Positions 1-46,957 are shown, counted from the stretch's first letter. The stretch is 64,000 nucleotides of DNA from a virus (IMGVR_UViG_2541047680_000004), one strand, 5' to 3'. Notes: a model not told the origin generated them from the sequence alone. Numbers and translations: made by a program.

Positions 1-175
1 GCGGGCGTTCATGCTCAGAAACAAGGTTGGGACAAGCACTTCCAGGCTAACACAGTCAGAAATCGAAACGTACTCTCAACAGTTCGCTTAGGCATGGAAG
101 TTTTGCGGCATTCTGGCTACACAATAACAAGGGAAGACTTACTCGTGGCTGCAACCCTACTAGCTCAAAATTTAT

Positions 176-487
176 TCACACATGGTTACGCTTTGGGGAA
201 ATTATGAGGGGATCTCTCAGCGCACTACATGCCCCCATATAAGCGCCAATTTCGCTGGCATGATTTGACAACAAAGGTTCAGCTGCGAGCTGTTCTAATG
301 AAATGCCATGAACGGCTTGAGCTTTCGGATCTATGTTTCTGCGAGGGTTAAAACGCATCTCCAGACTATCAATATGTCTCTGTGTCTCCAGTTCATAGCG
401 GGTAATTGCGATTTCAATAATTTTATGACCAGCAAGGAAATCCAGTCCCGTAGACTCGATATCGATGCCTGCAACAATCGTTGTCAT
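176..487 (-). CDS. DEDD-family 3'-5' exonuclease-like domain protein (short, possibly truncated)
   Basis: N-terminal GIDIESTGL matches the Exo I motif of DnaQ/RNase T-like exonucleases; ORF stops after 103 aa with no Exo II/III; no continuation seen in other frames toward the window start. Confidence 0.35.
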   Translation of the reverse strand: MTTIVAGIDIESTGLDFLAGHKIIEIAITRYELETQRHIDSLEMRFNPRRNIDPKAQAVHGISLEQLAAEPLLSNHASEIGAYMGACSALRDPLIISPKRNHV

Positions 488-496
488 CAGAACTCC

Positions 497-916
497 TTAC
501 AACTTCTTAGCGCCCTTAAGTAGTGCGCTACGTACAAATTGAGCCGCTTTTTTCAAAGTTTCTTCACTGGTTTCACAGACAATCGGATCTTTCCACTTAC
601 CTGACGCAGTGTTGAGAATATTGATTTGGTTGCTATCCAGACAAACAGAGATATAAAGCACCGTGCCACCAGCCAGCATCAAATGCATAGGAAACAGAGG
701 CTTTTTACTGTCTTCACTGAACTGAGACATGGCGATGTTAATGGCTTCACCTACTTGTGCGCCAACAAGCCCCTGCGCAGTTTCGAATATGGCACGAATA
801 GCCAGGCGAGCCTCTCGATCGCTCATAAGCGACCGGGAATGTTCGTCCGCTACACGAATCAAAGCCTCTGTTGTTTTCCGATCCAGTTCATCTTCAAGCA
901 ACATTTCACTAAACAT
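497..916 (-). CDS. hypothetical protein
   Basis: 139-aa ORF co-oriented and tightly spaced with neighbours; no recognisable motif. Confidence 0.4.
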   Translation of the reverse strand: MFSEMLLEDELDRKTTEALIRVADEHSRSLMSDREARLAIRAIFETAQGLVGAQVGEAINIAMSQFSEDSKKPLFPMHLMLAGGTVLYISVCLDSNQINILNTASGKWKDPIVCETSEETLKKAAQFVRSALLKGAKKL

Positions 917-977
917 TTTTTATCCTTAACCCATTTTGAGAGTTTTATTGTCGCAATGTCGAAGAGGCGAACAATTT

Positions 978-1622
978 CTAATGAACGGTCACTCGGCCAC
1001 AGAACCGGTTTTCTATCTTTTCTACAGCGTTATCTAGCATTCTCATCACTGATCTGGCTCTTGCTTCAACCGTGCGATATCGGTTGGAAACGACGAAGGT
1101 TTGCAGATCCCCCCTTTGCGGATGCAGGTGAATTTTTGTCAGTTCCCCGCACATCAACGCATCAATACGAGCGACATACAGACGGTCTAATGATGCTCGT
1201 TGTGACCGCAAGTAATCTCGCTCTGAGAGAGCGACCCCCGGGCGTAGGCCAGCAATGGCGTTAAAGTTTGAAATAGCAGTTTTGTGGCAAAACTTTTCGA
1301 TATCGAGGGCTAACTCAATACATCGATCTTCATTGGTATGGCCGACCAAATCCAACGTGTAGGCCATAACATCAGCAGGTGTGCGATCGATAACAAAGCC
1401 TTCAACACCACGCGTAAGTAGCTCTATATGCTTTGCTATTTCCATTTGAATCTGAAGCCGCTCATATAGAGGCATAGACTCACCTACTCGAACACCGAGT
1501 CGGCTCATCAAACTTCCGACACCAGCATCCACGTAAGGGATTCCGTAATGTTTGTCGATATATTTTGCCAGGGTTGTTTTCCCACTGCCCTGAGCACCAG
1601 TGATCCCAATCCGGTAATCCAT
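978..1622 (-). CDS. P-loop NTPase, putative (deoxy)nucleotide kinase
   Basis: Walker A GITGAQGSGKTT at N-terminus; stop/start coupled with DHFR gene at 1622; sits in nucleotide-metabolism operon. Confidence 0.55.
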   Translation of the reverse strand: MDYRIGITGAQGSGKTTLAKYIDKHYGIPYVDAGVGSLMSRLGVRVGESMPLYERLQIQMEIAKHIELLTRGVEGFVIDRTPADVMAYTLDLVGHTNEDRCIELALDIEKFCHKTAISNFNAIAGLRPGVALSERDYLRSQRASLDRLYVARIDALMCGELTKIHLHPQRGDLQTFVVSNRYRTVEARARSVMRMLDNAVEKIENRFCGRVTVH

Positions 1623-2098
1623 TACGACCTTCTGTATACGATCTGCGAAAAGCCAGGCTCTTCCTCGCTGGCTCGTTGGGTAAAAACTGTTTCAACAGGC
1701 ACAAAGCCTAAATTACGCATCATGCTTGCCGGGAAGAATGCATCGGCGTTTGGCACATCAACGCCGATGTGGGAGAGCCAAATCTCTTCAACATGCGGCA
1801 TGAATAGCGAGTAAATTTGTTCCCCGCCAATCACCCACACAGGCTCTGGTAATCGCAACACATCATCCACACCAGCAGGGTAGAATCCATTTGGTACAAA
1901 GCCATGAGAGCGCGTCAAAACGAGGTTATGACGCTCTGGAAGAGGGCGTTTGAGACTTTCCATCGTTTTACGCCCCATAACGACAGTGGCGTTTTTGGTG
2001 AGTCTCTTAAATAGCTTCAGATCGGTAGAACAACGCCAGGGCAGTTCGTTCGCTATGCCGATCTCATAGTTACGGCCAACAGCAGCTATCATCTTCAT
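1622..2098 (-). CDS. folA: dihydrofolate reductase
   Basis: MIAAVGRNYEIGIANELPW ... VVMGRKT pattern typical of DHFR; 158 aa; ATGA overlap with upstream ORF. Confidence 0.85.
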   Translation of the reverse strand: MKMIAAVGRNYEIGIANELPWRCSTDLKLFKRLTKNATVVMGRKTMESLKRPLPERHNLVLTRSHGFVPNGFYPAGVDDVLRLPEPVWVIGGEQIYSLFMPHVEEIWLSHIGVDVPNADAFFPASMMRNLGFVPVETVFTQRASEEEPGFSQIVYRRS

Positions 2099-2556
2099 TT
2101 GCTCACCTCATAGATGACCGGTCTATGATGAGAGTCAGCTAAAGCGGCACGGAGTCGAGGATCGTGCACCAGCGCAGCGATAAGCAGATCGCCTTTATGC
2201 TCCGCTAATGTGCGCTTAATATGCTTCTCATAACTGGTGCCATTCGGTACGAGATGAAGCCAGTCGTAATCAACGCCAAAATCTTTCAGCCATCGTTTAG
2301 TGGGCGCTTCAAGAGTTTCAGAGCGGCTACTGATAAGCACCACTTCAGCCCCTGAGCGAGCAAAACCACGCAACATACGGCTGGTGGGGAAAATGAGTTC
2401 ATCACCGGCAATGAGCTGGCCTGCATCCGCGTCAGATACAGATTTACGATGGCTGGTATTTGCCAGCACACCTTCAATTTCGCATAAGACATACATACCT
2501 CTTGCCATATCACACCGCCACTGGAACCTTGATCCACGGTAGAGGGTCATAGCCAA
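2095..2556 (-). CDS. hypothetical protein in thyA-folA operon (start uncertain, possibly 2508)
   Basis: ORF overlaps thymidylate synthase 3' end by 46 nt if first Met is used; an internal Met at about 2508 would give a coupled start; no motif recognised. Confidence 0.4.
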   Translation of the reverse strand: MAMTLYRGSRFQWRCDMARGMYVLCEIEGVLANTSHRKSVSDADAGQLIAGDELIFPTSRMLRGFARSGAEVVLISSRSETLEAPTKRWLKDFGVDYDWLHLVPNGTSYEKHIKRTLAEHKGDLLIAALVHDPRLRAALADSHHRPVIYEVSK

Positions 2557-3640
2557 GAATCAGAATATCGTCCCATTTGAAATCATCCAGCTCAGACCAT
2601 TCATGAGGGAAAATAACGACCGGATCTGAATGCTCTGGAGCCTGTCGTTTCATTAGCTCACACACACCTTCCATGTGGTTGTTGTACAAATGCACGTCAA
2701 AGCCAAAATGTACAAATGCACCGGCCATGTGACCCGTAATCTTCGCGAGAAAATGAGTGAGAATGCCATAGCCAGCAATATTGAATGGCATACCAACAAA
2801 AGTGTCTACGCTACGCTGTACGAGGCAGGAGTTGAGGATGCGTTTGGGGATTCCAAGTTCATCCAGTTCAGTTTCAGTAACACTGCCGTCCATCTCCAGA
2901 TCGTATAGCATCTTGGTGTAGATAGACTCATAACCGAGGCGACTGTGTTGAAGACCAATGTCAGTTGCCATCGTTAAACGGGTTTCAAAATCAAGCTCAC
3001 GACTCCACAAAGAGAAGACAAAGTGGCAAGGTGGCAGTTTCATATCCTCAAGCTCGCCTACGTTCCATGCGTTAAGCATGATACGACGATCGGTGGGGTT
3101 CGTGCGCAGTGTATCGACAATACGCTGTAGCTGATCGATTTCACGGGACAGCACTACGCGATCTTCACTGATACCCAGGTATCCCTCGACTTTGTACCCG
3201 CGTTCACGGAAAGTATCGATCTTGCTCAGATATTCACTATGGCTCACGATGCGGGTATCTTCCCATCGACGCCACTGCTTACCGTAAACCGGCCCCAAAT
3301 CGCCATTCTCATCGGCCCATGCATCCCAAATCTTAACGCCGTTATCCTTGAGAAATTGGATGTTGCCCGTGCCTTTCAGATACCACTCAAGTTCGACAAG
3401 CAGTGGCTTAAGATTTACCGCCTTTCCAGAAATAAGCGGCACAGTCCCACCAGTAAGCATGTAGTAAGAGGGAACGTAGCAGGTGCTTAAAGTACCAGTG
3501 CCTGTGCGATCATCAGCCTGCACGCCGCTTTTAAGCACCGTCTCAATAACTTTTGCATACGATGCGTTTGTTACCTGACCGTTCGTATGCTCACGATTCA
3601 AAAGGAGTGACACAAAAACCTCACAAAGATAAGTAACCAC
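2510..3640 (-). CDS. thyA: thymidylate synthase (long form with insertion)
   Basis: DRTGTGT, YGKQWRRW and LPPCH (catalytic Cys) motifs; GTG start; 376 aa is longer than the roughly 264-aa bacterial enzyme. Confidence 0.85.
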   Translation of the reverse strand: MVTYLCEVFVSLLLNREHTNGQVTNASYAKVIETVLKSGVQADDRTGTGTLSTCYVPSYYMLTGGTVPLISGKAVNLKPLLVELEWYLKGTGNIQFLKDNGVKIWDAWADENGDLGPVYGKQWRRWEDTRIVSHSEYLSKIDTFRERGYKVEGYLGISEDRVVLSREIDQLQRIVDTLRTNPTDRRIMLNAWNVGELEDMKLPPCHFVFSLWSRELDFETRLTMATDIGLQHSRLGYESIYTKMLYDLEMDGSVTETELDELGIPKRILNSCLVQRSVDTFVGMPFNIAGYGILTHFLAKITGHMAGAFVHFGFDVHLYNNHMEGVCELMKRQAPEHSDPVVIFPHEWSELDDFKWDDILILGYDPLPWIKVPVAV

Positions 3641-3690
3641 TTATTCCTTAAGTGAGTTTACATTTATTGAGGGAACAAGGCCAGATAGAT

Positions 3691-3720
3691 AAAAAAATGG
3701 TGGCCATAGGCCACCAAAAA
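3691..3720 (-). terminator. rho-independent terminator-like hairpin (bidirectional appearance)
   Basis: tggtggcc-ata-ggccacca stem-loop flanked by A7 and A5 runs; lies just downstream of the 3785..4654 gene on the minus strand. Confidence 0.55.
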
Positions 3721-3784
3721 CGAATAGTTGTTTCAGAAATTTAACGCGCCAACGCAATATACACAGATAGATAACTACCTACAA

Positions 3785-4654
3785 TTATTTTTTGATCATT
3801 CCGTACATTGCTGAGGCTTTAGCTTGCTCAACAAAGGAGGATAAATCGACATCACTATAGGTTGGAGACTTCAGAATCTTTCCATCGGAAATTCGAAAAC
3901 CGATCATCTTATCGGTGCCATCAGCATGGCGAAATCCCAGGTCAGAAGAGTCGTATTTGCAGTTGGCCACAGCATGGCGACGCTCTTCGGCATCTGCAGG
4001 CCATAATTTTGTCATGTTGGACCGATGAATTTCGCCAACCAGCTCGACGACATTGATACCGAGGAAATCAGCCAGTCGATAGGTCATCATGCACGCCACA
4101 TAGATTTTGTTCATTACACGGCGCAGTTCCTGAATCAGCTCAGAATCCTTAACAGTCTTGTTCTCAAGTTTATCTGCCAGCTCTTCGAGCATACATGACG
4201 CCTCACGAGCTTCCTGAAATGGCATTGCCATATCATCGAAAACAGTGTTACCAGGCACAAAAATTGTCTGCATAAAGCGATCAATGCTCTGTTCCTGCGT
4301 GTAATAGGTCATGCCGGTAGAAATACCACCTTTGATGGCGACCATCGTACCAACACCAACGTATAAAAAGTCGGCCATTGCATCCAGCAGTTGCTCAATA
4401 TCCCCATTCATTGCGGCTGGAATACCTTCCACTACAGCTTCTTCATGAATCAGGCTTGCACGGAGACGAAGCAGCTCTGGTGTCGGCATAACGCGTCTCG
4501 GATGCTGGAAGAGTTCATGAAACTGATCGACCATCTTGTAAATACTTTCAGTAGCTACACCATGACCTTCATGCAACTCATATGGTTCTGGCTTAAATCC
4601 AATGAGTCGATCGGTGGCAAGTTTCAGGTGGTCAGTCAGTTTGGTAAAGTTCAT
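3785..4654 (-). CDS. putative all-alpha NTP pyrophosphohydrolase (MazG / dimeric dUTPase-like)
   Basis: Acidic EE..E...D-type motif region (HEEAVVEGIPAA ... DIEQLLDAMADFLYV) reminiscent of the MazG/HisE superfamily; context next to nrdAB/thyA. Confidence 0.4.
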   Translation of the reverse strand: MNFTKLTDHLKLATDRLIGFKPEPYELHEGHGVATESIYKMVDQFHELFQHPRRVMPTPELLRLRASLIHEEAVVEGIPAAMNGDIEQLLDAMADFLYVGVGTMVAIKGGISTGMTYYTQEQSIDRFMQTIFVPGNTVFDDMAMPFQEAREASCMLEELADKLENKTVKDSELIQELRRVMNKIYVACMMTYRLADFLGINVVELVGEIHRSNMTKLWPADAEERRHAVANCKYDSSDLGFRHADGTDKMIGFRISDGKILKSPTYSDVDLSSFVEQAKASAMYGMIKK

Positions 4655-4731
4655 GCTAGTTTTGTTCCTTCTTAATTCTTGTGATCCATTGTGGCCCAGC
4701 GTTGCCAGGCCACATAATGCTTTGTATCGGT

Positions 4732-5874
4732 TTACAGGTCTGCAAACTGGCTTAGAGAAGCCTTATCCACGGTAGAATCGATCTGACCTACCAGATATGT
4801 GCTTTGCTCTGCCTCTTGTGGTGCAATTTGCAGTGTGTCGGTTAACAACCACTTGTTCATCCAGACCAGCGGATCTGTGGTAACTTCTGGAAATAAAGCC
4901 TTCAGGCCAAGACGATTCATAGCCAGATTGGTGCGGTATTTTACATAGGTCTTCAGAATATCCGCGTTTAAACCAATCATCGAACCGTCTTTGAAGAGAT
5001 AGTCTGCCCAGTTCATTTCTTGTTCGGCGACTGATTTCATGGTGTCGTAAATGACGTTTTCTTCATCAGCAGCAATCTCTTTCCACAATAAACCTTCGCG
5101 ACCGGTACGCATGAAGCGGATCATGCGTTCAGTTCCTTCGCAATGCAGAGCTTCATCACGGGCAATAAAGCGCATAATTTTGGTGTTGCCCTCAAGCAAC
5201 TTCCGTTCGCCAAAGGCAAACGTACATGCAAAACTTACATAGAAACGGATCGCCTCAAGCGCATTAATGGACACCAACGTGCGGAAAAGCTGACGGTGCA
5301 AAGGGTATGGCTCCCAGCCATATTCATTTACGTACAGACGTTCAAACTCTTTCTCACCTAACGACTGGCGCTCGCAGGTCATCCCATAAAGCCTGTCATA
5401 TTCAGCAGAGATACTGATCGCTCGGTTGATGATTTCTTCATCCGTAACAATACCGTTAAAAACAATGCTCGGATCGTCCACCATGCCACGAATAATGTGG
5501 GTGTAGCTGCGGCTATGGATAGTCTCAGAGAAAGACCATGTTTCAACCCACGTTTCCAGTTCAGGAATAGAGATAAGCGGCAGCAGCGTTGCATTTGGGC
5601 TACGTCCCTGAACTGAATCGAGTAACGTTTGATAACGGAGATTGCTCAGAAAAATGTGACGTTCGTGGTCCCGCAGCTTCGTGTTGAAGTCGATACGATC
5701 GCTCGAAATATCAACTTCTTCCGGCCGCCAGAAGAAAGACAATTGACGTTCAATCAACTTTTCAAAATCACGGTATTTTTGCTGATCGTAACGTGCCACG
5801 TTGACAGATTGTCCGAGGAACATAGGCTCTTTGGTTGCATCATTAGCACCCAAACGGAACGTTGAATATGACAT
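4732..5874 (-). CDS. nrdB: ribonucleotide reductase small (beta) subunit
   Basis: [14 protein letters not shown] and EALHCEG iron-ligand/tyrosyl-radical region motifs; 380 aa; adjacent to nrdA. Confidence 0.9.
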
Positions 5875-19024: not shown

Positions 19025-20098
19025 TTACTCTTCTACTGACTCGGTGGGGTTGTCTTTTGCTCTTCGGTCGTCGATTGCCTGCAAAGCCGCAATGATTTCA
19101 GCCAGTGGCTTCTCCCGATACATCTCGACGATCTGCGATTTGGTGTATTTCTTGTCACCAATTTCAACTCGCCCGCTGGCGTTCTTTGGCAGGTATCCTT
19201 CTTCCAGCATGTACTCGACGAGCGATTCGATAACGTCGAGGCCACGAGTAGGATCGAAGTAGAATTTCCAGGTGCATTTGCCATACGGTGGTGCAACTTT
19301 GTTTTTGATGCATTCTGCGCCTACGTCCTGGCCGATCTTCTCTTTACCATCCTTCATCACCGATGCACCAAGACGGATACGTACAGAAGCGTAGAACTTC
19401 GGTGAATCTCCACCTGGCGACGTAGTAGGGTCGCCAAACATTACACCGATTTTTGTGCGAACCTGATTCAAGAAGATGATGCAGGCGTTGTATTTGCGTG
19501 CCCACAAAGCCAGAGTAGGGAAGTTCGCACTTGTCGCACGAGCCAGTGCCGTATTGTCGTTCATGTTTAGCTGATCTTTGTCTTTGGCAGTGCCTTCAGC
19601 CATCTTTTCGAACTTCTCGGCTTTGGTGTTCGGAACCATAGACGCAAGTGAGTCAGCCACGATACAGATAGGTGCTGATTCAGGGATAAGCTCTTCATCA
19701 CGTACCAATTTAAGTATTGTGCCGATCAACTCTACAGAGTCTTCGAAGGTGTCAGGCTGCTTGTATACCCACTGACCGTCATCCTCATCTGCGTTCAGGC
19801 CATTGGCTACAGCCAGGCCAACGTCAAAACTGTTTTCATGATCGAGGAATACCGCCAGACCATCTTGTTTTTGAGCGGAGATCATCGCTGCTGTCGCAAG
19901 GAACGTTTTCCCTGCACTTGGAGGACCGAATACTTCGACGATACGACCACATGGGAAGCCGCCATCGTAACGACCGGAAATAGCTTTGTTTAACGGTGGA
20001 AAGCCTGTATCAATCCAATGAGTTACTTTCTGAATTTCGTCGTTGCTACCGATTTTCTTTTTCAGAGCAAGTGCCAGTGCGGATTTTCCTTTTGCCAT
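19025..20098 (-). CDS. RecA-like recombinase
   Basis: GRIVEVFGPPSAGKTFLA (Walker A), ICIVADSLASM (Walker B region) and FLNQVRTKIGVMFGDPTTSPGG match the RecA core closely; 357 aa. Confidence 0.8.
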   Translation of the reverse strand: MAKGKSALALALKKKIGSNDEIQKVTHWIDTGFPPLNKAISGRYDGGFPCGRIVEVFGPPSAGKTFLATAAMISAQKQDGLAVFLDHENSFDVGLAVANGLNADEDDGQWVYKQPDTFEDSVELIGTILKLVRDEELIPESAPICIVADSLASMVPNTKAEKFEKMAEGTAKDKDQLNMNDNTALARATSANFPTLALWARKYNACIIFLNQVRTKIGVMFGDPTTSPGGDSPKFYASVRIRLGASVMKDGKEKIGQDVGAECIKNKVAPPYGKCTWKFYFDPTRGLDVIESLVEYMLEEGYLPKNASGRVEIGDKKYTKSQIVEMYREKPLAEIIAALQAIDDRRAKDNPTESVEE

Positions 20099-23076: not shown

Positions 23077-26000
23077 TCACGTCTTAATAGTTTCTGCTAC
23101 GTCGGCTAATATCGCTTCTAGTCGTTCTCCCTCTTCAGGTCTGAAGTAAAGAATGTTGGGGTTAAACCCGTAAAAGACAGTAACGTCAAGGTCTGGAAGA
23201 TACTCCTTCCTGCCGACCAAATCGGATGGCTTGTTTTTGTTGTTAAACAATGCCGTTGCCCGGCTGCCACACGTCAGCACATAGGTCGGACGCACCAGAT
23301 TGATCTCTTCACGTATAAAGTCGGTGAACTGGCCGATCTCGTCTTTGGTGTAGTCTTTTTCTTTGTCTTTAACCTTCTTGCAAACGCCTGTGACATAGAG
23401 ATCGCCCATGCGTAAATCTCCAGCCGTCAATAGCTTGGCCTTAAAGTCGTCGTATCCGTTCTCCATAAAGTAACCGGTTCGAGCATCATTGCCGTTCGCA
23501 TTGTCCAGAATGATCATGATTTTCGGCTTAATACCAATGCTGGGGCGGATTAGTTCATCACCTAAGCCCATTTCAGCCGCCATCCGCGTCATGAGTACGT
23601 TAATTTCAGCCGAACGTTTGGGGTTCATCTCAAACGGACGTGAGGCTTTAACTGCGTCTATGACAAGATTTCCCATCAATTCAGCCTGGTCGCGTAGGCG
23701 CTCTGGAGCAGTTGCTGGCAGACTACCTGGCTCGATGGATGCAAACGCCCCTACTTTTTGCAGCGATTCGCGCACTCGACTATTACAGGCACGTTTCTCG
23801 ACAGCTTCTTCGAATTGCGCCAGTGACTCGAATTTGCCGCCAACTTTTTCTCGCGCTCTCATGATGGCTTGGCAGCCATTCTCAGAACACCCCTTCACAG
23901 CAGAGAATGGCGCATACAGCACCTGGCTGCCATCTTCAAGCGTGCGGATCTCGATTCGGTTAGATGACACGTTAACGTCTGGTGGCAATACGCGAATGCC
24001 ATAGGTCAGCGCATCTTTAACCAGCCCCTGGTGTTTATCTTCGCCAAGAATAGTGAGAGCAGCAGCGAAAAACTCTGCGGGATAATGAGTTTTCAACCAC
24101 ATAGATTGATAACTGATTAAGGAGTAAGCAACAGAGTGTGATTTGTTGAACTGGTAGGCACCATTTTTTTCGAATGCGGTCCAGATCTCCTTCGCTTTCA
24201 TCTCTGATAGCCCTGGATGTGACGCTGTAACGCGTACTGCGTTTATAGGTAGTTTTGCGCCGTGCTCAAGTGCCTCTTCGACAGTTTTCAGAGTTCCGTC
24301 TTCGCATTTAAAATGTTCCGCACGGTGAATGCGCTGTGTAGTGCCATCTTCCAGCTCAACGTCTATCCAGCCAGCTTGAGCCTGAACGATGAACTTCTCG
24401 CCCATGCTCTTCATTTTTTCCATGTTCTTCTTACCGATTGCGGAACGCACAGCGTCAGCTTCAGCCATTGTGAAGCCGGCAAGCAATCGAGTCGCGTTCA
24501 TCGTCTGTTCCTGATAGAGAATCACGCCATTTGTTTCCGCGGTAAGTTCATCAAGAACGGGGTGTAATGATTCCGGCGTCATAAAGCCTTTGGCGACAGA
24601 AACATAGTCATCCAACATGCCTGATTGAATTGGCCCTGGCCGGAAGAGCGCAGTCGTAGCGACGACCGTTTTAAAGCTCATTGGCTCAATTCCACCACCT
24701 AAATCTTTAAGCAGCTTGCGCATTGGGCCTGATTCAAGCTGGAAAACACCTTGAGTATACCCAGCAGCAAAACCATCCAGCACCTTGCGATCTTCAAGAG
24801 AAATGGCATCAAGATTGATATCTTCACCTGTGTTCTCTTTTATGTAGCGTTTTGCACTATCGAGCAAATCGAGAGTTGCCAGGCCAAGCACGTCCAGCTT
24901 AATTAGGCCCATAGCCTCGCAGTAACGCTTGTCAAATGCGATACAACGCGCGTCACCACGGCGCTCAACCGGTGTACGTTCTGTCAGAGGAACACCTGCT
25001 ACGATCATCCCTGCCGCATGTCTACCAAAGCCACGCATAAGGCTTTGTAACTTGCAGGCTGCATTGAATGCATCAGGATATTTTGTTGCGTATTTGTCGA
25101 GACTTGCCAGTTGTTCGCGCAGCTCTTCCAATGGAAGGCTATCATCCTCGACGTTCTTCAGTTCTTTTGATACCGCCATATCTGCGGACTCCACACCATA
25201 AATACGAGCGGTATCACGTAGTGCAGAGGCTGCGCCCAGGTAGGTGAAGTTCGGAATGCCTGCAACGTAATCTTCGCCGTAGCGTTCATTCAGATACTCG
25301 ATCACTTCATGGCGACGTGCCTGGCTGAAGTCCAAATCCGCATCCGGCAAGTCGAGACGCTCAGGGTTGATGAAACGTTCAAACAGAAGACCGTGACGGA
25401 TTGGGTCGACGTTGGTTATGCCTATGCACCATGCCACCAGAGATCCAGCGGAGGAACCACGACCAGGCCCGACAGGAATGCCAGTTTCACGGCTGTGATT
25501 CATCAGATCGCGTACCATCAGGAAGTAACCACAAAATCCCAGGCGAGTCAGCGTGTCCATTTCGTACTTTAGCCGCTCAACATAAACCCTGTTCTCAGAA
25601 GCAGGTGGTGTGTAGCCAAACTCTTTTGTGGTAAGACGTTTACGCAGCCCTGCAACAGCCAGTTTCATAAGCGTTGCAGGCTCGTCGTCTGCCATCTTTG
25701 GCAGTGCTGGCGGCAATTCATGCCAGCGCCATGTGCAGGCATCGATAATGGTATCCTGCGTTGTTGAGGCCATTGCAGCTGTTACCGGCACATCCATGCG
25801 AACGGAGAAGGCTTTAAGCGCCTCAAGGAGATGGCGGCGACCATTGACGGCGTTATCTCGCTGGTGGGGGATACGCAGACGATGCGGCTGGTCGATTTTG
25901 ATGTTGTTCGTAACCATGTGCGCAATGTCTTTAATGTCTGCATCGTCGATCGATTCGTAATAAGCGGGATAGAACGCCACTGGCTCTATTTTCAATGCGC

Positions 26001-26595
26001 TGGCGACTTTCATCGCCCGGACGTTAATCTGGTCGTAGAATGGGGTAGGGTGCGGATAAACCACACTATAGAAGTTGTCTTTTCCACCCGCTGTAATCAG
26101 TGTGCTTATGATTTTTGCAAAATCGTTGCGTTGGAACACGCTACCGATGTCGGAAGTAAGCAGGATGATGTTGCCTTTGGCATATGTAGAAACCAACTGT
26201 TCGAGCGAGAGACGCGGTACAAAGTAGAACTGTTCTCGTGTGTTGGCCGCCGTCATTAGTTCGCAGATGTCGCGATATCCTTTCTCATTTTTAATTAGAG
26301 CGGTAAACGAGTAGTTACGTCCTCGCTCTAATGATTCCATACATCCCTTAGATTCTTTAGCAAGTTTAGCCCGGTGCTCGTATGTGGGATCATCAACGAT
26401 ATTTAGTTTCACACCACAAATAACCGCCATGTCGTCACCAGCGGCACGTTGTAGTGGAATAACACTCGCAATATTCATGCTATCTGCTGAAATTACAGCG
26501 GTGTAGCCAGCTTCTCTGGCAATCTTCACCGCGTTTTCTGCTTTTAAAGCCGACTCCCCAAGTGAGAAGTCAGTTCGAACCATCAGTGCCTTCAT
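23077..26595 (-). CDS. dnaE: DNA polymerase III alpha-like replicative polymerase (DnaE family)
   Basis: N-terminal PHP-like region and the GPGRGSSAGSLVAWCIGITNVDP ... LLFERFINPER signature of DnaE-family polymerases; 1172 aa. Confidence 0.85.
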   Translation of the reverse strand: MKALMVRTDFSLGESALKAENAVKIAREAGYTAVISADSMNIASVIPLQRAAGDDMAVICGVKLNIVDDPTYEHRAKLAKESKGCMESLERGRNYSFTALIKNEKGYRDICELMTAANTREQFYFVPRLSLEQLVSTYAKGNIILLTSDIGSVFQRNDFAKIISTLITAGGKDNFYSVVYPHPTPFYDQINVRAMKVASALKIEPVAFYPAYYESIDDADIKDIAHMVTNNIKIDQPHRLRIPHQRDNAVNGRRHLLEALKAFSVRMDVPVTAAMASTTQDTIIDACTWRWHELPPALPKMADDEPATLMKLAVAGLRKRLTTKEFGYTPPASENRVYVERLKYEMDTLTRLGFCGYFLMVRDLMNHSRETGIPVGPGRGSSAGSLVAWCIGITNVDPIRHGLLFERFINPERLDLPDADLDFSQARRHEVIEYLNERYGEDYVAGIPNFTYLGAASALRDTARIYGVESADMAVSKELKNVEDDSLPLEELREQLASLDKYATKYPDAFNAACKLQSLMRGFGRHAAGMIVAGVPLTERTPVERRGDARCIAFDKRYCEAMGLIKLDVLGLATLDLLDSAKRYIKENTGEDINLDAISLEDRKVLDGFAAGYTQGVFQLESGPMRKLLKDLGGGIEPMSFKTVVATTALFRPGPIQSGMLDDYVSVAKGFMTPESLHPVLDELTAETNGVILYQEQTMNATRLLAGFTMAEADAVRSAIGKKNMEKMKSMGEKFIVQAQAGWIDVELEDGTTQRIHRAEHFKCEDGTLKTVEEALEHGAKLPINAVRVTASHPGLSEMKAKEIWTAFEKNGAYQFNKSHSVAYSLISYQSMWLKTHYPAEFFAAALTILGEDKHQGLVKDALTYGIRVLPPDVNVSSNRIEIRTLEDGSQVLYAPFSAVKGCSENGCQAIMRAREKVGGKFESLAQFEEAVEKRACNSRVRESLQKVGAFASIEPGSLPATAPERLRDQAELMGNLVIDAVKASRPFEMNPKRSAEINVLMTRMAAEMGLGDELIRPSIGIKPKIMIILDNANGNDARTGYFMENGYDDFKAKLLTAGDLRMGDLYVTGVCKKVKDKEKDYTKDEIGQFTDFIREEINLVRPTYVLTCGSRATALFNNKNKPSDLVGRKEYLPDLDVTVFYGFNPNILYFRPEEGERLEAILADVAETIKT

Positions 26596-32893: not shown

Positions 32894-34156
32894 ATGCCTT
32901 TTTTAATTTTCATTATTATACTACTGCTCACCGTGATTTTTTGGGATTGGGTTGTTTTAAATGGTCAAATTGTTGGAACATTGGCTACAGCATTTGCTTT
33001 TATAGCAACAGCATGGAATGCCTACGAAGCGAGAAAAAGTGCAAAAGCAGCTTTTTCAGCCCTTCAATTAACAACAGAATCATTGTTCGAAATGCGAAAG
33101 AGTGCATTTAAACAATGGTTTGATTCCTTATTAAATCAACATGATGAGCTATGTCTTCTTGCAAAACAAATTATCGATAAACGCAAAATTAATTTAAACA
33201 GCGATGAGTTACATAGACTATATTACCCATTGGTAAAACAGCATGAGGTAATACAGTATGTGAAGCATATTATTAATATTTTTGAGTATGTGGATAGTTC
33301 ATTTTATATTGATGGGGAATGTCTAAAGGAAAAAAGAGCGTATGTGTCACAATTAATTTTCAAAATCCCACCTCAGATGAAGTTGATCATTGCTATCTTT
33401 GGATTAAAGATCGATTATTGTGAACATATTAATTCGGGAAAACTGTGTTGTTTATTAAATAAATATGATTTTTTCAATGATGAAATATTTTTTGATGATG
33501 CTTATTCAGATATGCCTTATCTGGATGCATTCATAAACCTTAGATTCAACAAAATATTCAAATCTCGAATGATAAATTATTTTGATAATATCATTAAAAG
33601 TTATTATGTTCCATCGGACGTTAAAAGGGACTGGATGTTTCGAGACCCAAAGCTCGTACCGTCGGTTCTTATGAATTATAAAACTCCTTGTTCTCCTATA
33701 ATTAATGATTACTTTGAGAAGTTGCCTTTACATGTAAGAAACTACTTTGAGGAACTACTTAAAACCGCGAATGATAGAGTTACTCATTTTGACGTTTACA
33801 TCCCACGCCTTATTGGTTGTTCAATCGTGCAACATTACGAAGATGTGCCTTCCGAAAAAAACAGGTTAAATGACAGGAATGATGTAATAGCTATGGCTGA
33901 AGATTACATCGAGAAAAGAAAATCTAATCAACTAGATTACATACTTGAAGATATATACTTCAAGAGTGACGAAGATATAATCCCAGGCCACCATTTGATT
34001 GTGGCATTTGATGACTATGAATTTAAATTATCACTCATTAAGATAAATGAGAATAAAGATAGCGATAATCTTTTAAATCGAATTTATACTGAATCCAGTA
34101 GCATGGTTAAAGAATATAAGCGCGAAATATTAAAACTGGGCGACTATGTAAAGTAA
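32894..34156 (+). CDS. AT-rich membrane-anchored hypothetical protein (candidate accessory/defence-type gene)
   Basis: 420-aa ORF on the opposite strand to its neighbours; two N-terminal hydrophobic helices; sequence visibly more AT-rich than flanking genes; own terminator downstream. Confidence 0.5.
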   Translation: MPFLIFIIILLLTVIFWDWVVLNGQIVGTLATAFAFIATAWNAYEARKSAKAAFSALQLTTESLFEMRKSAFKQWFDSLLNQHDELCLLAKQIIDKRKINLNSDELHRLYYPLVKQHEVIQYVKHIINIFEYVDSSFYIDGECLKEKRAYVSQLIFKIPPQMKLIIAIFGLKIDYCEHINSGKLCCLLNKYDFFNDEIFFDDAYSDMPYLDAFINLRFNKIFKSRMINYFDNIIKSYYVPSDVKRDWMFRDPKLVPSVLMNYKTPCSPIINDYFEKLPLHVRNYFEELLKTANDRVTHFDVYIPRLIGCSIVQHYEDVPSEKNRLNDRNDVIAMAEDYIEKRKSNQLDYILEDIYFKSDEDIIPGHHLIVAFDDYEFKLSLIKINENKDSDNLLNRIYTESSSMVKEYKREILKLGDYVK

Positions 34157-38448: not shown

Positions 38449-39225
38449 TTACCAACTTCCCCAGCTAATCATCTTGCGCTGATCGCTTTCTAAGCGATAA
38501 GGGGCAAGAAGCTCTGTGACATGATTGGTGGCGTATGATTTAGCCTCTTGCTTAATCATCGGTAATTCGTTAGCAATCCTGACCATCTTCCCAGCAAATT
38601 CCGCCATTACGCCATCACAAGCCTTCCCCGCATCAACAACGATATGCACAAGATCCAACTGGCTTTTGCACATATCCCAAAGAGACGCGTATTCACTCTC
38701 TCTGATTACATTTACGGCACTATTAGCCCCTTTATTAATCAAAACTTCCAACAGATTTTTCGGGGTAACGAAATCTGCTTTCAGAGATAATGTCTTTTCA
38801 CCACTTATCGAACGCAAGTACTCTTCGTAGTTATTCTTCATCAAACCGCTGCTGCGCATTGCTAGAACTGCTTCTTGAATGGCCGCTTCAATAGTTTCGT
38901 CGTTTGAAAGACAAAAAACGGTATTTGTGTAGATCACTCTGCCATCAAGCCATGCTCCAACCTGCACTTTAAGACTGAGCGGGTTTTCTTTGCTAATAAA
39001 AACAACTAATGCAGAACGCCGTGCACAAGAAGGTTCGCCCCATACGTGTAACTCAACTTTCAGATAAGGCAACCCTGGTAGCGGGATCTCGTCCATACGA
39101 GCAGCGATATGATTCATTGCTGTATTGACGACCTTTCCAATGATGTCTAGTCGACTGCCCTCGCTGATTTCTAAACCTGTTTTATCAATGATGTCACAGG
39201 CCAATTTCTGAATTTCGTCTTTCAT
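38449..39225 (-). CDS. hypothetical protein
   Basis: 258-aa ORF; no motif recognised. Confidence 0.4.
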   Translation of the reverse strand: MKDEIQKLACDIIDKTGLEISEGSRLDIIGKVVNTAMNHIAARMDEIPLPGLPYLKVELHVWGEPSCARRSALVVFISKENPLSLKVQVGAWLDGRVIYTNTVFCLSNDETIEAAIQEAVLAMRSSGLMKNNYEEYLRSISGEKTLSLKADFVTPKNLLEVLINKGANSAVNVIRESEYASLWDMCKSQLDLVHIVVDAGKACDGVMAEFAGKMVRIANELPMIKQEAKSYATNHVTELLAPYRLESDQRKMISWGSW

Positions 39226-44795: not shown

Positions 44796-45869
44796 GTGGA
44801 TATTGTCACCATGCGCATGAATAGACTTCCAGGATATGGCCTTCCCGAACTGGCTTTTTGGCCTCAGCCTAAATATGAACGGAATAAATGGTCGATGTTC
44901 TGTCTGAAACTCCGTAATGATGGAACCCTTGCTTGGTATCGGCGATATGTTGATCGTGGTATGCCAAACCACGCTGTTGATGACGACTACGATAACTATC
45001 CTGAAGCAAGAAAAGCGGCATTAGAGCTGAATAAAAACGTGAGCTTTGACATTGAAAAACTTCCTCTATCTATGTTTCAAAAGAAGTCATTGCGTTTGAA
45101 AGTTGACAAAGCACTCAAAGCCAAATCACGTCTCATGGATGAAGAGTATATAATGCTCAACGAAGCAATTAAGGCACACGCCAACGATCCGCGAGTGACA
45201 TTAAATGAGTTAATAATTAACCCAGATTACGAAACTTTGCGTCAACCCCTTTTTGACGTGCTAAGCGAGATGCCTTACTTACATTTTGTTTTTCTTCCCA
45301 AATTCCAAGTTTCACTTCAACTCGTTGCTCCTAACACTTGGGAATGTTCATATAACAACAAAGCTAAGACAGCGAAGATCTGCTACCAAGAACGCATAGC
45401 CAGAGGTTTTGGTTTATCAGGTGCTGCACATTGGGGAAAAACAAAAGCGACTATTCGCTCAATGCTTCTGCCGCGTGCTAACCGGTTACTGCAACTCGCC
45501 AGCGTAAAAAGAATGCTGGATGAAGCTCTCAGGAATGGGCAAAAGGTACTGGTTGTTGGCAACTTTGTTTTCTGGTTTGAGGACAAAAATCAGGTAGGTT
45601 GGAGTGTTAAAGTTGCTAGCGAAAGCGAAACCACCTCAAGAGGCAATACGCTCTGGAAAGAAGGAACTATCATTTCAAAAAATCACGGTCGAATTGTCGT
45701 GCTGCCGTATACAAAAGAAAACGGTAAACATGTAAAAGGTTATACCAAGAATGCCCCTAACGACGGCAATGCAATTCCTAGACATAAGGATGAGTATGTT
45801 GAGTTGCCCTTTGAAATTTTGGATGGTGACTTGATGTTCAGTCTGTTCGGTGAGCTTAACTACGAATAG
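44796..45869 (+). CDS. hypothetical protein (plus-strand insert)
   Basis: 357-aa ORF on the opposite strand to the surrounding replication and partition genes. Confidence 0.45.
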   Translation: MDIVTMRMNRLPGYGLPELAFWPQPKYERNKWSMFCLKLRNDGTLAWYRRYVDRGMPNHAVDDDYDNYPEARKAALELNKNVSFDIEKLPLSMFQKKSLRLKVDKALKAKSRLMDEEYIMLNEAIKAHANDPRVTLNELIINPDYETLRQPLFDVLSEMPYLHFVFLPKFQVSLQLVAPNTWECSYNNKAKTAKICYQERIARGFGLSGAAHWGKTKATIRSMLLPRANRLLQLASVKRMLDEALRNGQKVLVVGNFVFWFEDKNQVGWSVKVASESETTSRGNTLWKEGTIISKNHGRIVVLPYTKENGKHVKGYTKNAPNDGNAIPRHKDEYVELPFEILDGDLMFSLFGELNYE

Positions 45870-45929
45870 CTTTCATAGAACGAAATATTTCTAAGGCTGT
45901 CCAATGCAGACCAGCCTTAGAGATTTATA

Positions 45930-46289
45930 TCAACCTTTCTTCATTAACTCGCGTTTAATTTCATCGGTACGCATCGTGACATCGGCAGCAGTGATCGCCT
46001 CGTTCAGCTTCACGATGTCCTCGATTTCCTGCGGTGTCTTCTCCGCAAGATGGAAAATAGCAGCACGAATCACATCAGAGCGGGTGAATTTCTCGAAGCG
46101 AGGGATGAACTTCATCATCTCCAGCAGTTCGAAGTATTCGTCTTCCAGTGACATTGTGCGGCTTTTAATTTTCTCTTTGCCACGAGTCGGGCGTCCCTGT
46201 GGTCTGACTGGTTGGCGCAAAGGAGTTGTGTTCTTAGCCGGTGCATCAGGCTCTTTGCGCTTTGCTAGGTCACCCATTTTCATGGACAT
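45930..46289 (-). CDS. small partition-associated DNA-binding protein (ParB/ParG-like candidate)
   Basis: 119-aa basic protein translationally coupled (ATGA-type overlap at 46289) to the ParA-like gene; arrangement typical of type Ib partition loci. Confidence 0.45.
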   Translation of the reverse strand: MSMKMGDLAKRKEPDAPAKNTTPLRQPVRPQGRPTRGKEKIKSRTMSLEDEYFELLEMMKFIPRFEKFTRSDVIRAAIFHLAEKTPQEIEDIVKLNEAITAADVTMRTDEIKRELMKKG

Positions 46290-46957
46290 TATTCTTCTTC
46301 CTCCAGACTCAACAGATAATCTACAAATTCTTCAAACTCGGCTTCCGCCTTTTTGTCGCGCTCGCTACCGGTCATTTCAAAGATAGAACGACCAGACTCT
46401 TCCGCATCATCATAGACGTTGCGGTTATATAGATTGACTGGCGCAGACTCGATGCCAAACGTCTCAACAATCTCTTTAGCCGCCAGAATGCGAGACACTT
46501 GTGATGGCAAAGCCGGGCACTGGTTCATGACCGCGCGGACCTTCACTTTATCGTTTACATTACGAACATTGTCGATAATAGGATCGATGTCACGCAGAGA
46601 TTTCAAATCACGACGCTTAGGACGAAGCGGGATAATGATAACGTCGGCCATCAGCATCGCTTGTCGCTGAATTTCGGAGTCAAAGCCACCAGCATCTACC
46701 ACTACATACTCAGCTCTACCCTGAAGCGATTTTAGGTGCTTAATGATGTCATCCTGAACGTATGCAAAAGGAATCAGCTCAAGGTCTTCGTTCTGTCGAC
46801 GGTCTTCACACCAGCTCGTTGTCGTGCGCTGAATATCTATATCGGTGATATAAACCTTCTTCTTCTTTTTGACTTTCAGGCAAACGGCAATTTGCTGGGC
46901 TACGGTGGATTTGCCTGGCCCGCCCTTTGTGCCGCCAACCACAAAGATCTTGGTCAT
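46289..46957 (-). CDS. parA: ParA/Soj-family partition ATPase
   Basis: Deviant Walker A KIFVVGGTKGGPGKST at N-terminus; 222 aa (small ParA class). Confidence 0.8.
   Translation of the reverse strand: MTKIFVVGGTKGGPGKSTVAQQIAVCLKVKKKKKVYITDIDIQRTTTSWCEDRRQNEDLELIPFAYVQDDIIKHLKSLQGRAEYVVVDAGGFDSEIQRQAMLMADVIIIPLRPKRRDLKSLRDIDPIIDNVRNVNDKVKVRAVMNQCPALPSQVSRILAAKEIVETFGIESAPVNLYNRNVYDDAEESGRSIFEMTGSERDKKAEAEFEEFVDYLLSLEEEE

What the first reader, a model, noticed from the sequence alone, without database searches (positions are those of the whole stretch)
176..487. DnaE-type polymerase without obvious attached proofreading domain, plus a short stand-alone DEDD-like exonuclease fragment
The replicative polymerase here is DnaE-like (GPGRGSSAGSLV signature) rather than the family-A or -B enzymes of classic virulent coliphages, and DnaE normally relies on a separate epsilon subunit. 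The only DEDD-like candidate in the window is this 103-aa ORF, which has an Exo I motif (GIDIESTGL) but terminates before Exo II/III, and I could not find a continuing frame. It may be a degenerate remnant, or the proofreader is encoded elsewhere or supplied by the host.
Basis: partly seen in the sequence, partly recalled or inferred. Interest (0 to 1): 0.4.

Follow-up and report, generated by a model that had tools for sequence, protein, structure and literature searches.

The report
Proofreading exonuclease gene cut by IS10
The 103-residue "exonuclease fragment" is the first half of a normal 185-residue proofreading-type exonuclease gene of an SSU5-like E. coli phage-plasmid, cut after codon 89 by an IS10 insertion that is also where the draft contig ends, so this is an ordinary insertion mutation.

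Summary
ORF 176-487 (-) encodes a DEDDh/epsilon-like N-terminus with Exo I only. The polymerase at 23077-26595 (-) is DnaE-type.

The cause of the truncation is simple. Window 1-220 is the end of IS10 (ISVsa5). Codons 1-89 of the ORF are identical to an intact 185-aa 3'-5' exonuclease found in near-identical E. coli phage-plasmids. Codons 90-103 and the stop are read from the IS10 terminus.

The window is the first 64 kb of contig KE698814.1 from E. coli HVH 3. That contig starts inside IS10, so there is no upstream sequence to inspect.

Intact relatives carry Exo II (D99) and Exo III (H155, D160). 167 of 176 related PLSDB plasmids carry the gene uninterrupted.

The DnaE PHP domain keeps none of the nine metal ligands needed for intrinsic proofreading. 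All 31 phage records whose DnaE matches over essentially its full length (29 of them through the UDG-like tail) also carry this exonuclease.

The best reading is that the exonuclease is the trans-acting proofreader of the element's own DnaE, and that it has been knocked out in this one strain.

Interest is low. The family, the gene and the IS are all already known.

The parts
1..220 (+). Terminal 220 bp of IS10 (annotated ISVsa5, IS4 family). This is the end that carries the transposase C-terminus (frame runs to the stop at 205-207) and the terminal repeat ...GGGGATCTCTCAG, which ends at 220. It is the 'inside' end as arranged in Tn10.
   Evidence: 99.5% identical to the IS10 transposase region of phage CL707 (H7). 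100% identical over 1-220 to copies annotated 'IS4-like element ISVsa5 family transposase'; 1007 of 5426 complete E. coli genomes hold a match covering at least 80% of these 220 bp. In L006 the same end abuts the Tn10 tetC/tet region and the transposase CDS ends 13 bp before the IS end.
221..487 (-). Native 5' part (codons 1-89) of the phage-plasmid 3'-5' exonuclease gene (DEDDh, epsilon-like). It contains Exo I (D9, E11) only.
   Evidence: 89/89 residues identical to the intact 185-aa protein. Homology to intact plasmids and phages starts at 221 (at 223 in one record). Codon 89 occupies 221-223. Pfam RNase_T 1.5e-8. PHROG 192 'DNA polymerase exonuclease subunit' 1.1e-21.
176..220 (-). IS10-encoded tail of the ORF: 14 foreign codons (LRDPLIISPKRNHV) plus the stop codon.
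   Evidence: Codon 90 = CTG at 218-220, which is the first three bases of the IS10 terminus. The alignment with the intact protein breaks here.
221..229 (.). The 9 bp next to the IS end (CGCACTACA). This is the presumed target site, which would be duplicated on the other side of IS10.
   Evidence: Inference from the known 9-bp target duplication of IS10. The other junction is not in the window or at this contig end, so this is not verified. The sequence is contiguous in the uninterrupted gene.
497..916 (-). Conserved 139-aa gene of unknown function immediately upstream of the exonuclease gene, on the same strand with a 9-bp gap.
   Evidence: PHROG 5373, E=9.3e-88, function unknown. Same position in PhiR41_1 and NZ_CP027358.1.
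23077..26595 (-). DnaE-type (C-family) DNA polymerase, 1172 aa. Domains: PHP, palm/NTPase, fingers, HhH, then a C-terminal UDG-like domain.
   Evidence: Pfam PHP, DNA_pol3_alpha, DNA_pol3_finger and HHH_6. TIGR00594 630 bits against a cut-off of 434. Best PDB matches are Taq, M. tuberculosis and E. coli Pol III alpha. PHROG 405 matches over the full length.
26068..26580 (-). PHP domain of the polymerase (residues 6-176). It is catalytically dead: the nine metal-ligand positions read M5, R7, E14, S39, K63, S96, S148, P210, Y212 (the last two lie just beyond the Pfam match).
   Evidence: MAFFT alignment with E. coli DnaE and with Taq and M. tuberculosis DnaE1 segments. HMMER pairwise alignments agree.
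23092..23439 (-). C-terminal family-4 UDG-like domain of the polymerase (residues 1053-1168), sitting where bacterial DnaE has its OB fold and tau-binding tail.
   Evidence: TIGR00758 E=2.8e-7 (30 bits, below the cut-off of 125). Pfam UDG E=0.015. This part is conserved in the Rhizobium and Pseudomonas phage homologues, whose matches reach query residue 1168-1170; the Stenotrophomonas matches end at 1150 and the Xanthomonas match at 986.

Best explanation
The window is the first 64 kb of a roughly 110-kb SSU5-like phage-plasmid of E. coli HVH 3. In this family a 185-aa DEDDh exonuclease of the DnaQ/epsilon type is encoded separately from the element's own DnaE-type polymerase. That polymerase has a PHP domain with no metal-binding residues left. 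The exonuclease is therefore most likely its trans-acting 3'-5' proofreader.

In this strain an IS10 (ISVsa5) copy inserted between codons 89 and 90 of the exonuclease gene. The ORF that remains encodes 89 native residues plus 14 residues read from the IS end. It has only two of the five catalytic residues and about half of the fold, so it cannot be an active exonuclease. The short-read assembly broke inside the repeated IS, which is why the window begins there and no continuation is visible.

Shown: the IS identity, the exact junction, identity to the intact gene, the missing motifs, the dead PHP domain, and the co-occurrence of the exonuclease with this DnaE type.

Inferred: that the exonuclease proofreads for this DnaE; that the 3' half of the gene lies beyond the IS at the other end of the contig; and that the element tolerates the loss because plasmid-state replication uses its Rep initiator with the host replisome.
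For: IS10 identity of window 1-220: (H7).

Junction: homology to intact phage-plasmids begins at 221 in nearly all records (223 in one), between codon 89 and the IS terminal CTG.

Identity to the intact gene: 89/89 residues.

Catalytic motifs in the intact protein: D9/E11, HNGEAFD (D99), H155-x4-D160. It aligns with E. coli epsilon 1J53 at E=1.5e-10. The top NCBIfam hits are Pol III epsilon models. PHROG 192 'DNA polymerase exonuclease subunit' scores 9e-51.

Source contig: KE698814.1 of E. coli HVH 3, protein EQM97886.1. Window position 1 is contig position 1.

No second half of the gene anywhere in the window.

PHP ligands: 0 of 9.

Only one 3'-5' exonuclease is annotated within positions 1-100,000 (of 110,001) of a near-identical plasmid.

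The gene is uninterrupted in 167 of 176 PLSDB plasmids.

All 31 phage records whose DnaE matches over essentially its full length (E. coli, Salmonella, Klebsiella, Rhizobium, Pseudomonas, Stenotrophomonas, Xanthomonas) also carry an exonuclease homologue; 29 of these DnaE matches run through the C-terminal domain. Protein identity falls to about 35-44% in the distant ones.
Against: The second IS10 junction and the 3' half of the gene were not seen, so an IS-mediated deletion or rearrangement, rather than a simple insertion, is not excluded (searches found nothing usable).

The 9 bp next to the IS (CGCACTACA) match the IS10 hot-spot consensus NGCTNAGCN at only 3 of 6 specified positions (my own reading of the sequence).

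No physical or functional link between the exonuclease and the DnaE has been shown. The protein lacks the C-terminal tail through which E. coli epsilon binds alpha. It scores far below the curated cut-offs of the epsilon models. The two genes lie 22 kb apart. PADLOC also matches it with a generic CRISPR-associated DEDDh model.
Confidence: 0.9

Rival explanations
1. Assembly artefact. The IS10 sequence at the contig start is a mis-join or read-through at a repeat, and the exonuclease gene is intact in the real plasmid.
For: The junction lies 220 bp from a contig end of a short-read draft assembly. No complete E. coli genome and none of the listed PLSDB plasmids shows this junction, and no species-representative genome contains it.
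Against: The break in homology falls exactly at the last base of the IS10 terminal repeat and between two codons. That is what transposition produces, and a random chimera would not be expected to do so. Contigs ending a few hundred bases into a multicopy IS are the normal outcome when an IS sits in a plasmid. An independent IS (IS1203) insertion in the same gene exists in a finished plasmid, pRM9975-1, so such events do occur.
Confidence: 0.05
2. The intact gene is not a polymerase proofreader. It could be a DEDDh nuclease with another role, such as a defence or CRISPR-accessory nuclease or a nucleotide-salvage nuclease. In that case its loss says nothing about replication fidelity.
For: PADLOC DEDDh (Cas-associated) model E=8.7e-25 and PDC-S48 3.4e-19. 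A survey of phage-plasmids lists DEDDh proteins among predicted defence genes of the SSU5 supergroup (bioRxiv 10.1101/2025.09.12.675607). The gene sits beside nucleotide-metabolism genes (DHFR, thymidylate synthase, RNR, an AAA_28 kinase-like ATPase), not beside dnaE. It has no epsilon C-terminal tail.
Against: No CRISPR-Cas genes are annotated within positions 1-100,000 of the related plasmid. The PADLOC model is a 139-position generic DEDDh domain. The best solved-structure and NCBIfam matches are Pol III epsilon and the PolC exonuclease domain. The gene co-occurs with the DnaE in all 31 phage records with an essentially full-length DnaE match, across distant hosts. That DnaE has no proofreading site of its own.
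Confidence: 0.12
3. The 103-aa product is a functional short protein, for example a naturally truncated or recoded variant or a dominant-negative polymerase-binding fragment, rather than a dead remnant.
For: The native promoter side, start codon and 89 native residues are untouched.
Against: This exact protein was found on a single contig of the public collection. In its 90%-identity cluster (551 members, 40 read) the listed complete members are 185 aa and the shorter ones are annotated as partial. Its tail is IS10 sequence. It lacks D99, H155 and D160 and half of the RNase_T domain. Other short variants in the database are frameshifts or contig-edge partials ending at unrelated positions.
Confidence: 0.02

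Closest known systems
3'-5' exonuclease of SSU5-like phage-plasmids (e.g. WP_021520508.1 in E. coli plasmid NZ_CP027358.1; 'DNA polymerase III epsilon subunit' XSB42444.1 of Escherichia phage PhiR41_1; SSU5 'putative exonuclease')
   Same: Residues 1-89 are identical. The flanking genes are the same and colinear. DNA identity is 98.8-100% from window 221 onward.
   Different: The window copy is interrupted after codon 89 by IS10 and lacks Exo II and Exo III. The reference genes are 558 bp and uninterrupted.
E. coli DNA polymerase III epsilon subunit (DnaQ; PDB 1J53, 5FKV)
   Same: Same DEDDh fold family. The catalytic residues align: D12/E14 with D9/E11, D103 with D99, H162/D167 with H155/D160. 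It is a stand-alone exonuclease encoded apart from a DnaE whose PHP domain is inactive.
   Different: About 29% identity. 185 aa against 243 aa. No C-terminal alpha-binding segment. Scores of 71.5 and 65.7 bits against curated cut-offs of 196 and 222.7. Binding to its polymerase, if any, must therefore use another interface.
IS10 / ISVsa5 (IS4 family; the flanking IS of Tn10)
   Same: Window 1-220 is 100% identical to annotated copies, including the transposase C-terminal coding region and the terminal repeat.
   Different: Only the last 220 bp are present because the contig starts inside the element. The rest of the IS, the second junction and the 9-bp duplication are not available.
IS1203 insertion in the same gene of plasmid pRM9975-1 (NZ_CP028433.1)
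   Same: An independent IS insertion into the same exonuclease gene of a related E. coli phage-plasmid.
   Different: A different IS (IS3 family) at a different site, near codon 12-14 at the 5' end. It was seen in a finished assembly with both junctions.
Bacterial DnaE / Pol III alpha (E. coli 2HNH, Taq 2HPI, M. tuberculosis DnaE1 5LEW)
   Same: PHP, palm, fingers and HhH architecture with the GPGRGS motif. E-values of 1e-109 to 1e-122.
   Different: The PHP domain has 0 of 9 metal ligands. E. coli keeps 4 unchanged, and Taq and M. tuberculosis keep all nine (seven of the Taq positions fell inside the aligned fragment; the rest is from my own knowledge). The C-terminal OB/tau region is replaced by a family-4 UDG-like domain. 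It scores below the equivalog cut-off (677 against 1002).

Membership tests
DEDDh exonuclease superfamily (Pfam RNase_T PF00929) | Exo I motif D-x-E | tested here: met
   D9-I-E11 is present in the window ORF. It aligns with D12/E14 of E. coli epsilon.
DEDDh exonuclease superfamily (Pfam RNase_T PF00929) | Exo II aspartate (H-N-x-x-F-D) | tested here: not met
   Absent from the window ORF, which leaves the native sequence after residue 89. Present as HNGEAFD 93-99 in the intact homologue.
DEDDh exonuclease superfamily (Pfam RNase_T PF00929) | Exo III motif H-x4-D | tested here: not met
   Absent from the window ORF and from all six frames of the window. Present as H155...D160 in the intact homologue.
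DEDDh exonuclease superfamily (Pfam RNase_T PF00929) | Match over the whole domain above the gathering score | tested here: inconclusive
   The window ORF scores 35.8 bits against a cut-off of 24, but covers only profile positions 3-81 of 164. The intact homologue scores 75.3 bits over positions 3-162. The window ORF is therefore a fragment of a true member.
DNA polymerase III epsilon subunit proper (TIGR01406 / NF004316 / TIGR00573) | Score at or above the curated cut-off | tested here: not met
   Intact homologue: 71.5 against 196 (NF004316), 65.7 against 222.7 (TIGR01406), 52.7 against 71.5 (TIGR00573).
DNA polymerase III epsilon subunit proper (TIGR01406 / NF004316 / TIGR00573) | C-terminal segment that tethers epsilon to the alpha PHP domain (about residues 190-243 of E. 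coli epsilon; established knowledge) | tested here: not met
   The intact phage-plasmid protein ends at residue 185, level with the end of the exonuclease domain of epsilon. No tail is present.
DNA polymerase III epsilon subunit proper (TIGR01406 / NF004316 / TIGR00573) | Binds a DnaE polymerase and removes its misincorporated 3' nucleotides | not testable with these tools
   Only indirect support: co-occurrence with the DnaE in all 31 phage records with an essentially full-length DnaE match, and a PHP domain without metal ligands.
IS10 / ISVsa5 (IS4 family insertion sequence) | Sequence identity to the element, including the transposase 3' coding region and terminal repeat | tested here: met
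   100% over window 1-220 to annotated ISVsa5 copies. 99.5% to the IS10 of phage CL707. The position of the transposase stop relative to the IS end is the same as in L006.
IS10 / ISVsa5 (IS4 family insertion sequence) | 9-bp direct target duplication flanking a complete 1.3-kb element | not testable with these tools
   The contig begins inside the IS. The second junction could not be fetched.
C-family replicative polymerase (DnaE, TIGR00594 superfamily) | PHP-palm-fingers-HhH architecture above the curated cut-off | tested here: met
   TIGR00594 scores 630.2 bits against a cut-off of 434.35. Four Pfam domains above their cut-offs.
C-family replicative polymerase (DnaE, TIGR00594 superfamily) | PHP-domain exonuclease: nine metal ligands (H14 H16 D23 H48 E73 H107 C158 D226 H228, M. 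tuberculosis DnaE1 numbering; the list is from my own knowledge, the positions were checked on the print-out) | tested here: not met
   The equivalent residues are M5, R7, E14, S39, K63, S96, S148, P210 and Y212, so none is identical.
SSU5-like phage-plasmids | Colinear genome with phage structural genes plus plasmid replication and partition genes | tested here: met
   76% DNA identity to SSU5 over about 90% of window 1-3000, and 99-100% to E. coli phage-plasmids. The window is colinear with NZ_CP027358.1 over 64 kb. A Rep3-type initiator, ParA-like ATPase, integrase/recombinase, tail genes, DnaB-like helicase and primase are present.

The most novel reading that the evidence does not exclude
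Because its dedicated DnaE has no intrinsic proofreading site, a phage-plasmid whose only 3'-5' exonuclease is knocked out could replicate its own DNA with low fidelity during lytic growth. It would then be a natural, element-restricted mutator, comparable to engineered orthogonal error-prone replication systems. Recurrent IS hits in this gene (IS10 here, IS1203 in pRM9975-1) might then reflect occasional selection for such variants rather than neutral damage.
Probability: 0.07. Interest if true: 0.45.

Novelty: already known. Interest (0 to 1): 0.1.

Why it matters
It matters little beyond correct annotation. G683_05079 (EQM97886.1, 'hypothetical protein') should be labelled as an IS10-disrupted 3'-5' exonuclease pseudogene.

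The case is also a caution for sequence-only reading. An ORF that 'stops early with no continuing frame' near a contig edge is often an IS junction.

A modest biological point follows. The element persists in its host without the exonuclease, and a second, independent IS insertion exists in a finished plasmid. This suggests the gene is not needed for plasmid-state maintenance. Its presence in 167 of 176 related plasmids, and in every phage whose DnaE matches over essentially its full length, argues that it is needed for productive or faithful phage replication.

Tried and rejected
1. Looking for the 3' half of the gene inside the window. blastn of the intact flank and an HMM/phmmer scan of all six-frame ORFs found nothing.

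2. Finding the same junction elsewhere. No complete E. coli genome, none of the listed best-matching PLSDB plasmids and no species-representative genome (exact 31-mer) has it.

3. Reaching the far end of contig KE698814.1.
- It exists in the protein collection only on contigs of 862 bp or less, from another strain.
- So the second junction remains unseen.

4. Testing whether truncated database entries share the same break point. They do not. They are frameshift variants or contig-edge partials ending at scattered positions.

5. AlphaFold2 of the DnaE C-terminal 213 residues without an alignment gave mean pLDDT 40. That is unusable, so no fold search was run.

6. Literature.
- The phage-plasmid survey PMC7969092 does not mention the polymerase or the exonuclease.
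- A search for DnaE-UDG fusions returned only a preprint on A-family polymerase-UDG fusions.

7. Rejected readings.
- Frameshift or sequencing error: the sequence after codon 89 is IS10, not shifted native sequence.
- Intron or homing-endonuclease insertion: this was my first guess from the converging ORF at 1-207, and it was replaced by the IS10 match.

Full report
**What is at 176-487**

The minus strand carries a 103-codon ORF, MTTIVAGIDIESTGLDF.... It matches Pfam RNase_T (PF00929) at E=1.5e-8, but only over profile positions 3-81 of 164. It matches the N-terminal third of the NCBIfam Pol III epsilon models. It also matches PHROG 192 'DNA polymerase exonuclease subunit' at 1.1e-21. The observation of an Exo I motif followed by early termination is therefore correct and is not a chance match.

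**Why the ORF stops**

A megablast of window 1-3000 against phage records split the sequence at position 220/221.
- Positions 221-3000 are 99.7% identical to Escherichia phage PhiR41_1 and 76% identical to Salmonella phage SSU5.
- Positions 1-210 are 99.5% identical to the IS10 transposase region of phage CL707.

Window 1-220 is 100% identical to copies annotated 'IS4-like element ISVsa5 family transposase'. ISVsa5 is, from my own knowledge, an IS10R isoform. 1007 of 5426 complete E. coli genomes hold a match covering at least 80% of these 220 bp. In one such copy inside Tn10 (L006), the transposase CDS ends 13 bp before the IS end and the IS end faces the tet genes. The window therefore holds the 'inside' end of IS10.

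In PhiR41_1 and in plasmid NZ_CP027358.1 the exonuclease gene is 558 bp (185 aa). The window protein is identical to it over residues 1-89 and unrelated afterwards. Codon 89 (GCG) occupies 221-223. Codon 90 (CTG) is the first three bases of the IS10 terminus CTGAGAGATCCCC.... The last 14 residues, LRDPLIISPKRNHV, and the stop codon are IS10 sequence.

The intact protein carries all DEDDh catalytic residues: D9/E11, HNGEAFD (D99) and H155-x4-D160. The window product keeps only the first two.

**Why no continuation can be found**

The exact 103-aa protein is on record on one contig only: NCBI GCA_000456045.1 KE698814.1, 109,855 bp. It is annotated as 'hypothetical protein G683_05079' of E. coli HVH 3 (4-7276001). 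The first 10,487 bases of that contig are identical to the start of the window. The window is therefore contig positions 1-64000, and the contig begins inside IS10.

Drafts usually break at multicopy IS elements in this way. No second half of the gene is present anywhere in the window at the DNA level or in any reading frame.

I could not reach the other end of the contig, where the 3' half and the second IS10 junction should lie if this is a simple insertion into a circular plasmid of about 110 kb. That step is inferred, not shown.

**Context**

The window is colinear with the complete E. coli plasmid NZ_CP027358.1 from its position 38479 onward, at 97-99% identity. The element encodes the following:
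- A Rep3/RepB-type initiator, a ParA-like ATPase and a tyrosine recombinase.
- DnaB-like helicase, primase, gp32-like SSB, a RecA-like protein, a FEN-type 5'-3' exonuclease, an SbcCD-like pair, ligase and RNase HI.
- RNR, thymidylate synthase and DHFR.
- tRNAs and tail genes.

This is an SSU5-type phage-plasmid, a group already described (PMC7969092; bioRxiv 10.1101/2025.09.12.675607). Only one 3'-5' exonuclease is annotated within positions 1-100,000 of the 110,001-bp relative.

**The polymerase**

ORF 23077-26595 (-) is a 1172-aa DnaE-type enzyme. It has PHP, DNA_pol3_alpha, finger and HHH_6 domains, scores 630 bits on TIGR00594 against a cut-off of 434, and carries GPGRGSSAGSLV at residue 376.

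I aligned it with E. coli DnaE and with the Taq and M. tuberculosis DnaE1 segments printed. The nine PHP metal ligands that make up the intrinsic proofreading site in those enzymes correspond to M5, R7, E14, S39, K63, S96, S148, P210 and Y212. None is conserved. E. coli alpha, which relies on epsilon, still keeps four.

The only extra domain is C-terminal (about residues 1053-1168) and resembles family-4 uracil-DNA glycosylases (TIGR00758 E=2.8e-7, below cut-off; Pfam UDG E=0.015). It is not a nuclease.

**Is the exonuclease the polymerase's partner?**

This is inference, with three supports.
1. The closest solved structure and the top curated-family matches are Pol III epsilon and the PolC exonuclease domain.
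2. The DnaE has no proofreading site of its own.
3. In the phage collection, all 31 records whose DnaE matches over essentially its full length also contain a homologue of the exonuclease. These are the 31 best DnaE matches (H135-H165) out of 651 records; the list shows 60. In 29 of them the match runs through the C-terminal domain; the Stenotrophomonas matches end at residue 1150 and the Xanthomonas match at 986. Hosts are E. coli, Salmonella, Klebsiella, Rhizobium, Pseudomonas, Stenotrophomonas and Xanthomonas, and protein identity falls to 35-44% in the distant ones. The listed actinophage DnaE homologues, which lack the C-terminal domain, are not among the exonuclease hits.

There is also evidence against a literal 'epsilon' label.
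- The protein is 185 aa with no counterpart of epsilon's C-terminal alpha-binding tail.
- It scores far below the curated epsilon cut-offs.
- It lies 22 kb from dnaE, next to nucleotide-metabolism genes.

PADLOC matches it with a generic Cas-associated DEDDh model, and a recent survey lists such proteins as predicted defence genes in this supergroup. However, no cas genes are annotated within positions 1-100,000 of the related plasmid.

**How unusual is the disruption?**

Among PLSDB plasmids, 176 match the gene and 167 carry it in one uninterrupted piece. One finished plasmid, pRM9975-1, has an independent IS1203 insertion near the 5' end of the same gene. Frameshifted variants also occur in a few draft genomes.

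The gene is therefore strongly conserved but can be lost without loss of the plasmid. That fits a role in phage-mode replication rather than plasmid maintenance. This last point is inference.

**Verdict**

This is a real feature, correctly spotted, with a mundane cause. An IS10 insertion has inactivated the epsilon-like exonuclease gene of a known type of phage-plasmid, and it is seen at the edge of a draft contig. Nothing here lies outside known kinds.

Noticed in passing
window 23092-23439 (-), residues 1053-1168 of the DnaE ORF 23077-26595: The DnaE-type polymerase ends in a family-4 UDG-like domain (TIGR00758 E=2.8e-7, below cut-off) where bacterial DnaE has its OB fold and tau-binding tail. 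By eye the UDG motifs look altered (GEAPG to LDNAN, HPS to NPN). The DnaE matches in Rhizobium and Pseudomonas phages run through this domain (to query residue 1168-1170); the Stenotrophomonas matches end at 1150. AF2 without an alignment failed (pLDDT 40). I found no paper describing a C-family polymerase-UDG fusion.
   Followed up: partly
window 19025-20098 (-) versus NZ_CP027358.1 56798-59137 (L004 6798-9137): The RecA-like gene (357 aa, Pfam RecA 2.1e-42) is uninterrupted here. The relative has a 779-aa CDS annotated 'LAGLIDADG family homing endonuclease', with 1,270 extra bases at window 19903/19907. The relative probably carries an intein in RecA, and the window has the intein-free allele.
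   Followed up: partly
L007 (NZ_CP028433.1 pRM9975-1) 3001-4778: An independent IS3-family IS1203 insertion lies near the 5' end of the same exonuclease gene in a finished E. coli phage-plasmid. The annotated exonuclease CDS there is shortened to 516 bp.
   Followed up: partly
window 32894-34156 (+), 44796-45869 (+), 45904-46386 (+): Three plus-strand ORFs (420, 357 and 160 aa) lie in segments that do not align with the related plasmid NZ_CP027358.1 and have no Pfam match. These are variable cargo spots of the phage-plasmid with unknown function.
   Followed up: no
window 497-916 (-): A 139-aa gene of unknown function (PHROG 5373, E=9.3e-88) sits 9 bp upstream of the exonuclease gene in all relatives inspected. 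It is a possible accessory partner, but nothing supports a specific role.
   Followed up: no
window 23689-23703 (-), DnaE residues 965-969 (QAELM): Just after the HhH domain the polymerase has QAELM, at about the position where (from my recollection of the E. coli sequence; this region was not aligned) alpha has its internal beta-clamp motif QADMF. The exonuclease family ends in a conserved GFFK(L/I)P. No clamp gene is annotated within positions 1-100,000 of the related plasmid, so the host clamp may be used. This rests on pattern matching only. The scan printed 970, which is an offset error; the residue numbers and coordinates given here are corrected from the printed sequence.
   Followed up: no
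window 1622-2098 (-): The DHFR gene of this element corresponds to the one annotated in the relative as trimethoprim-resistant DfrA51. It was described in phage-plasmids in PMC12217456.
   Followed up: no
Klebsiella phage records CP101896.1, CP101890.1, PQ492289.1 (hits H144-H146): The DnaE match in these records is split into two pieces spanning 4,244 bp instead of about 3,510 bp. This suggests an insertion, possibly an intein, inside dnaE in those phages.
   Followed up: no
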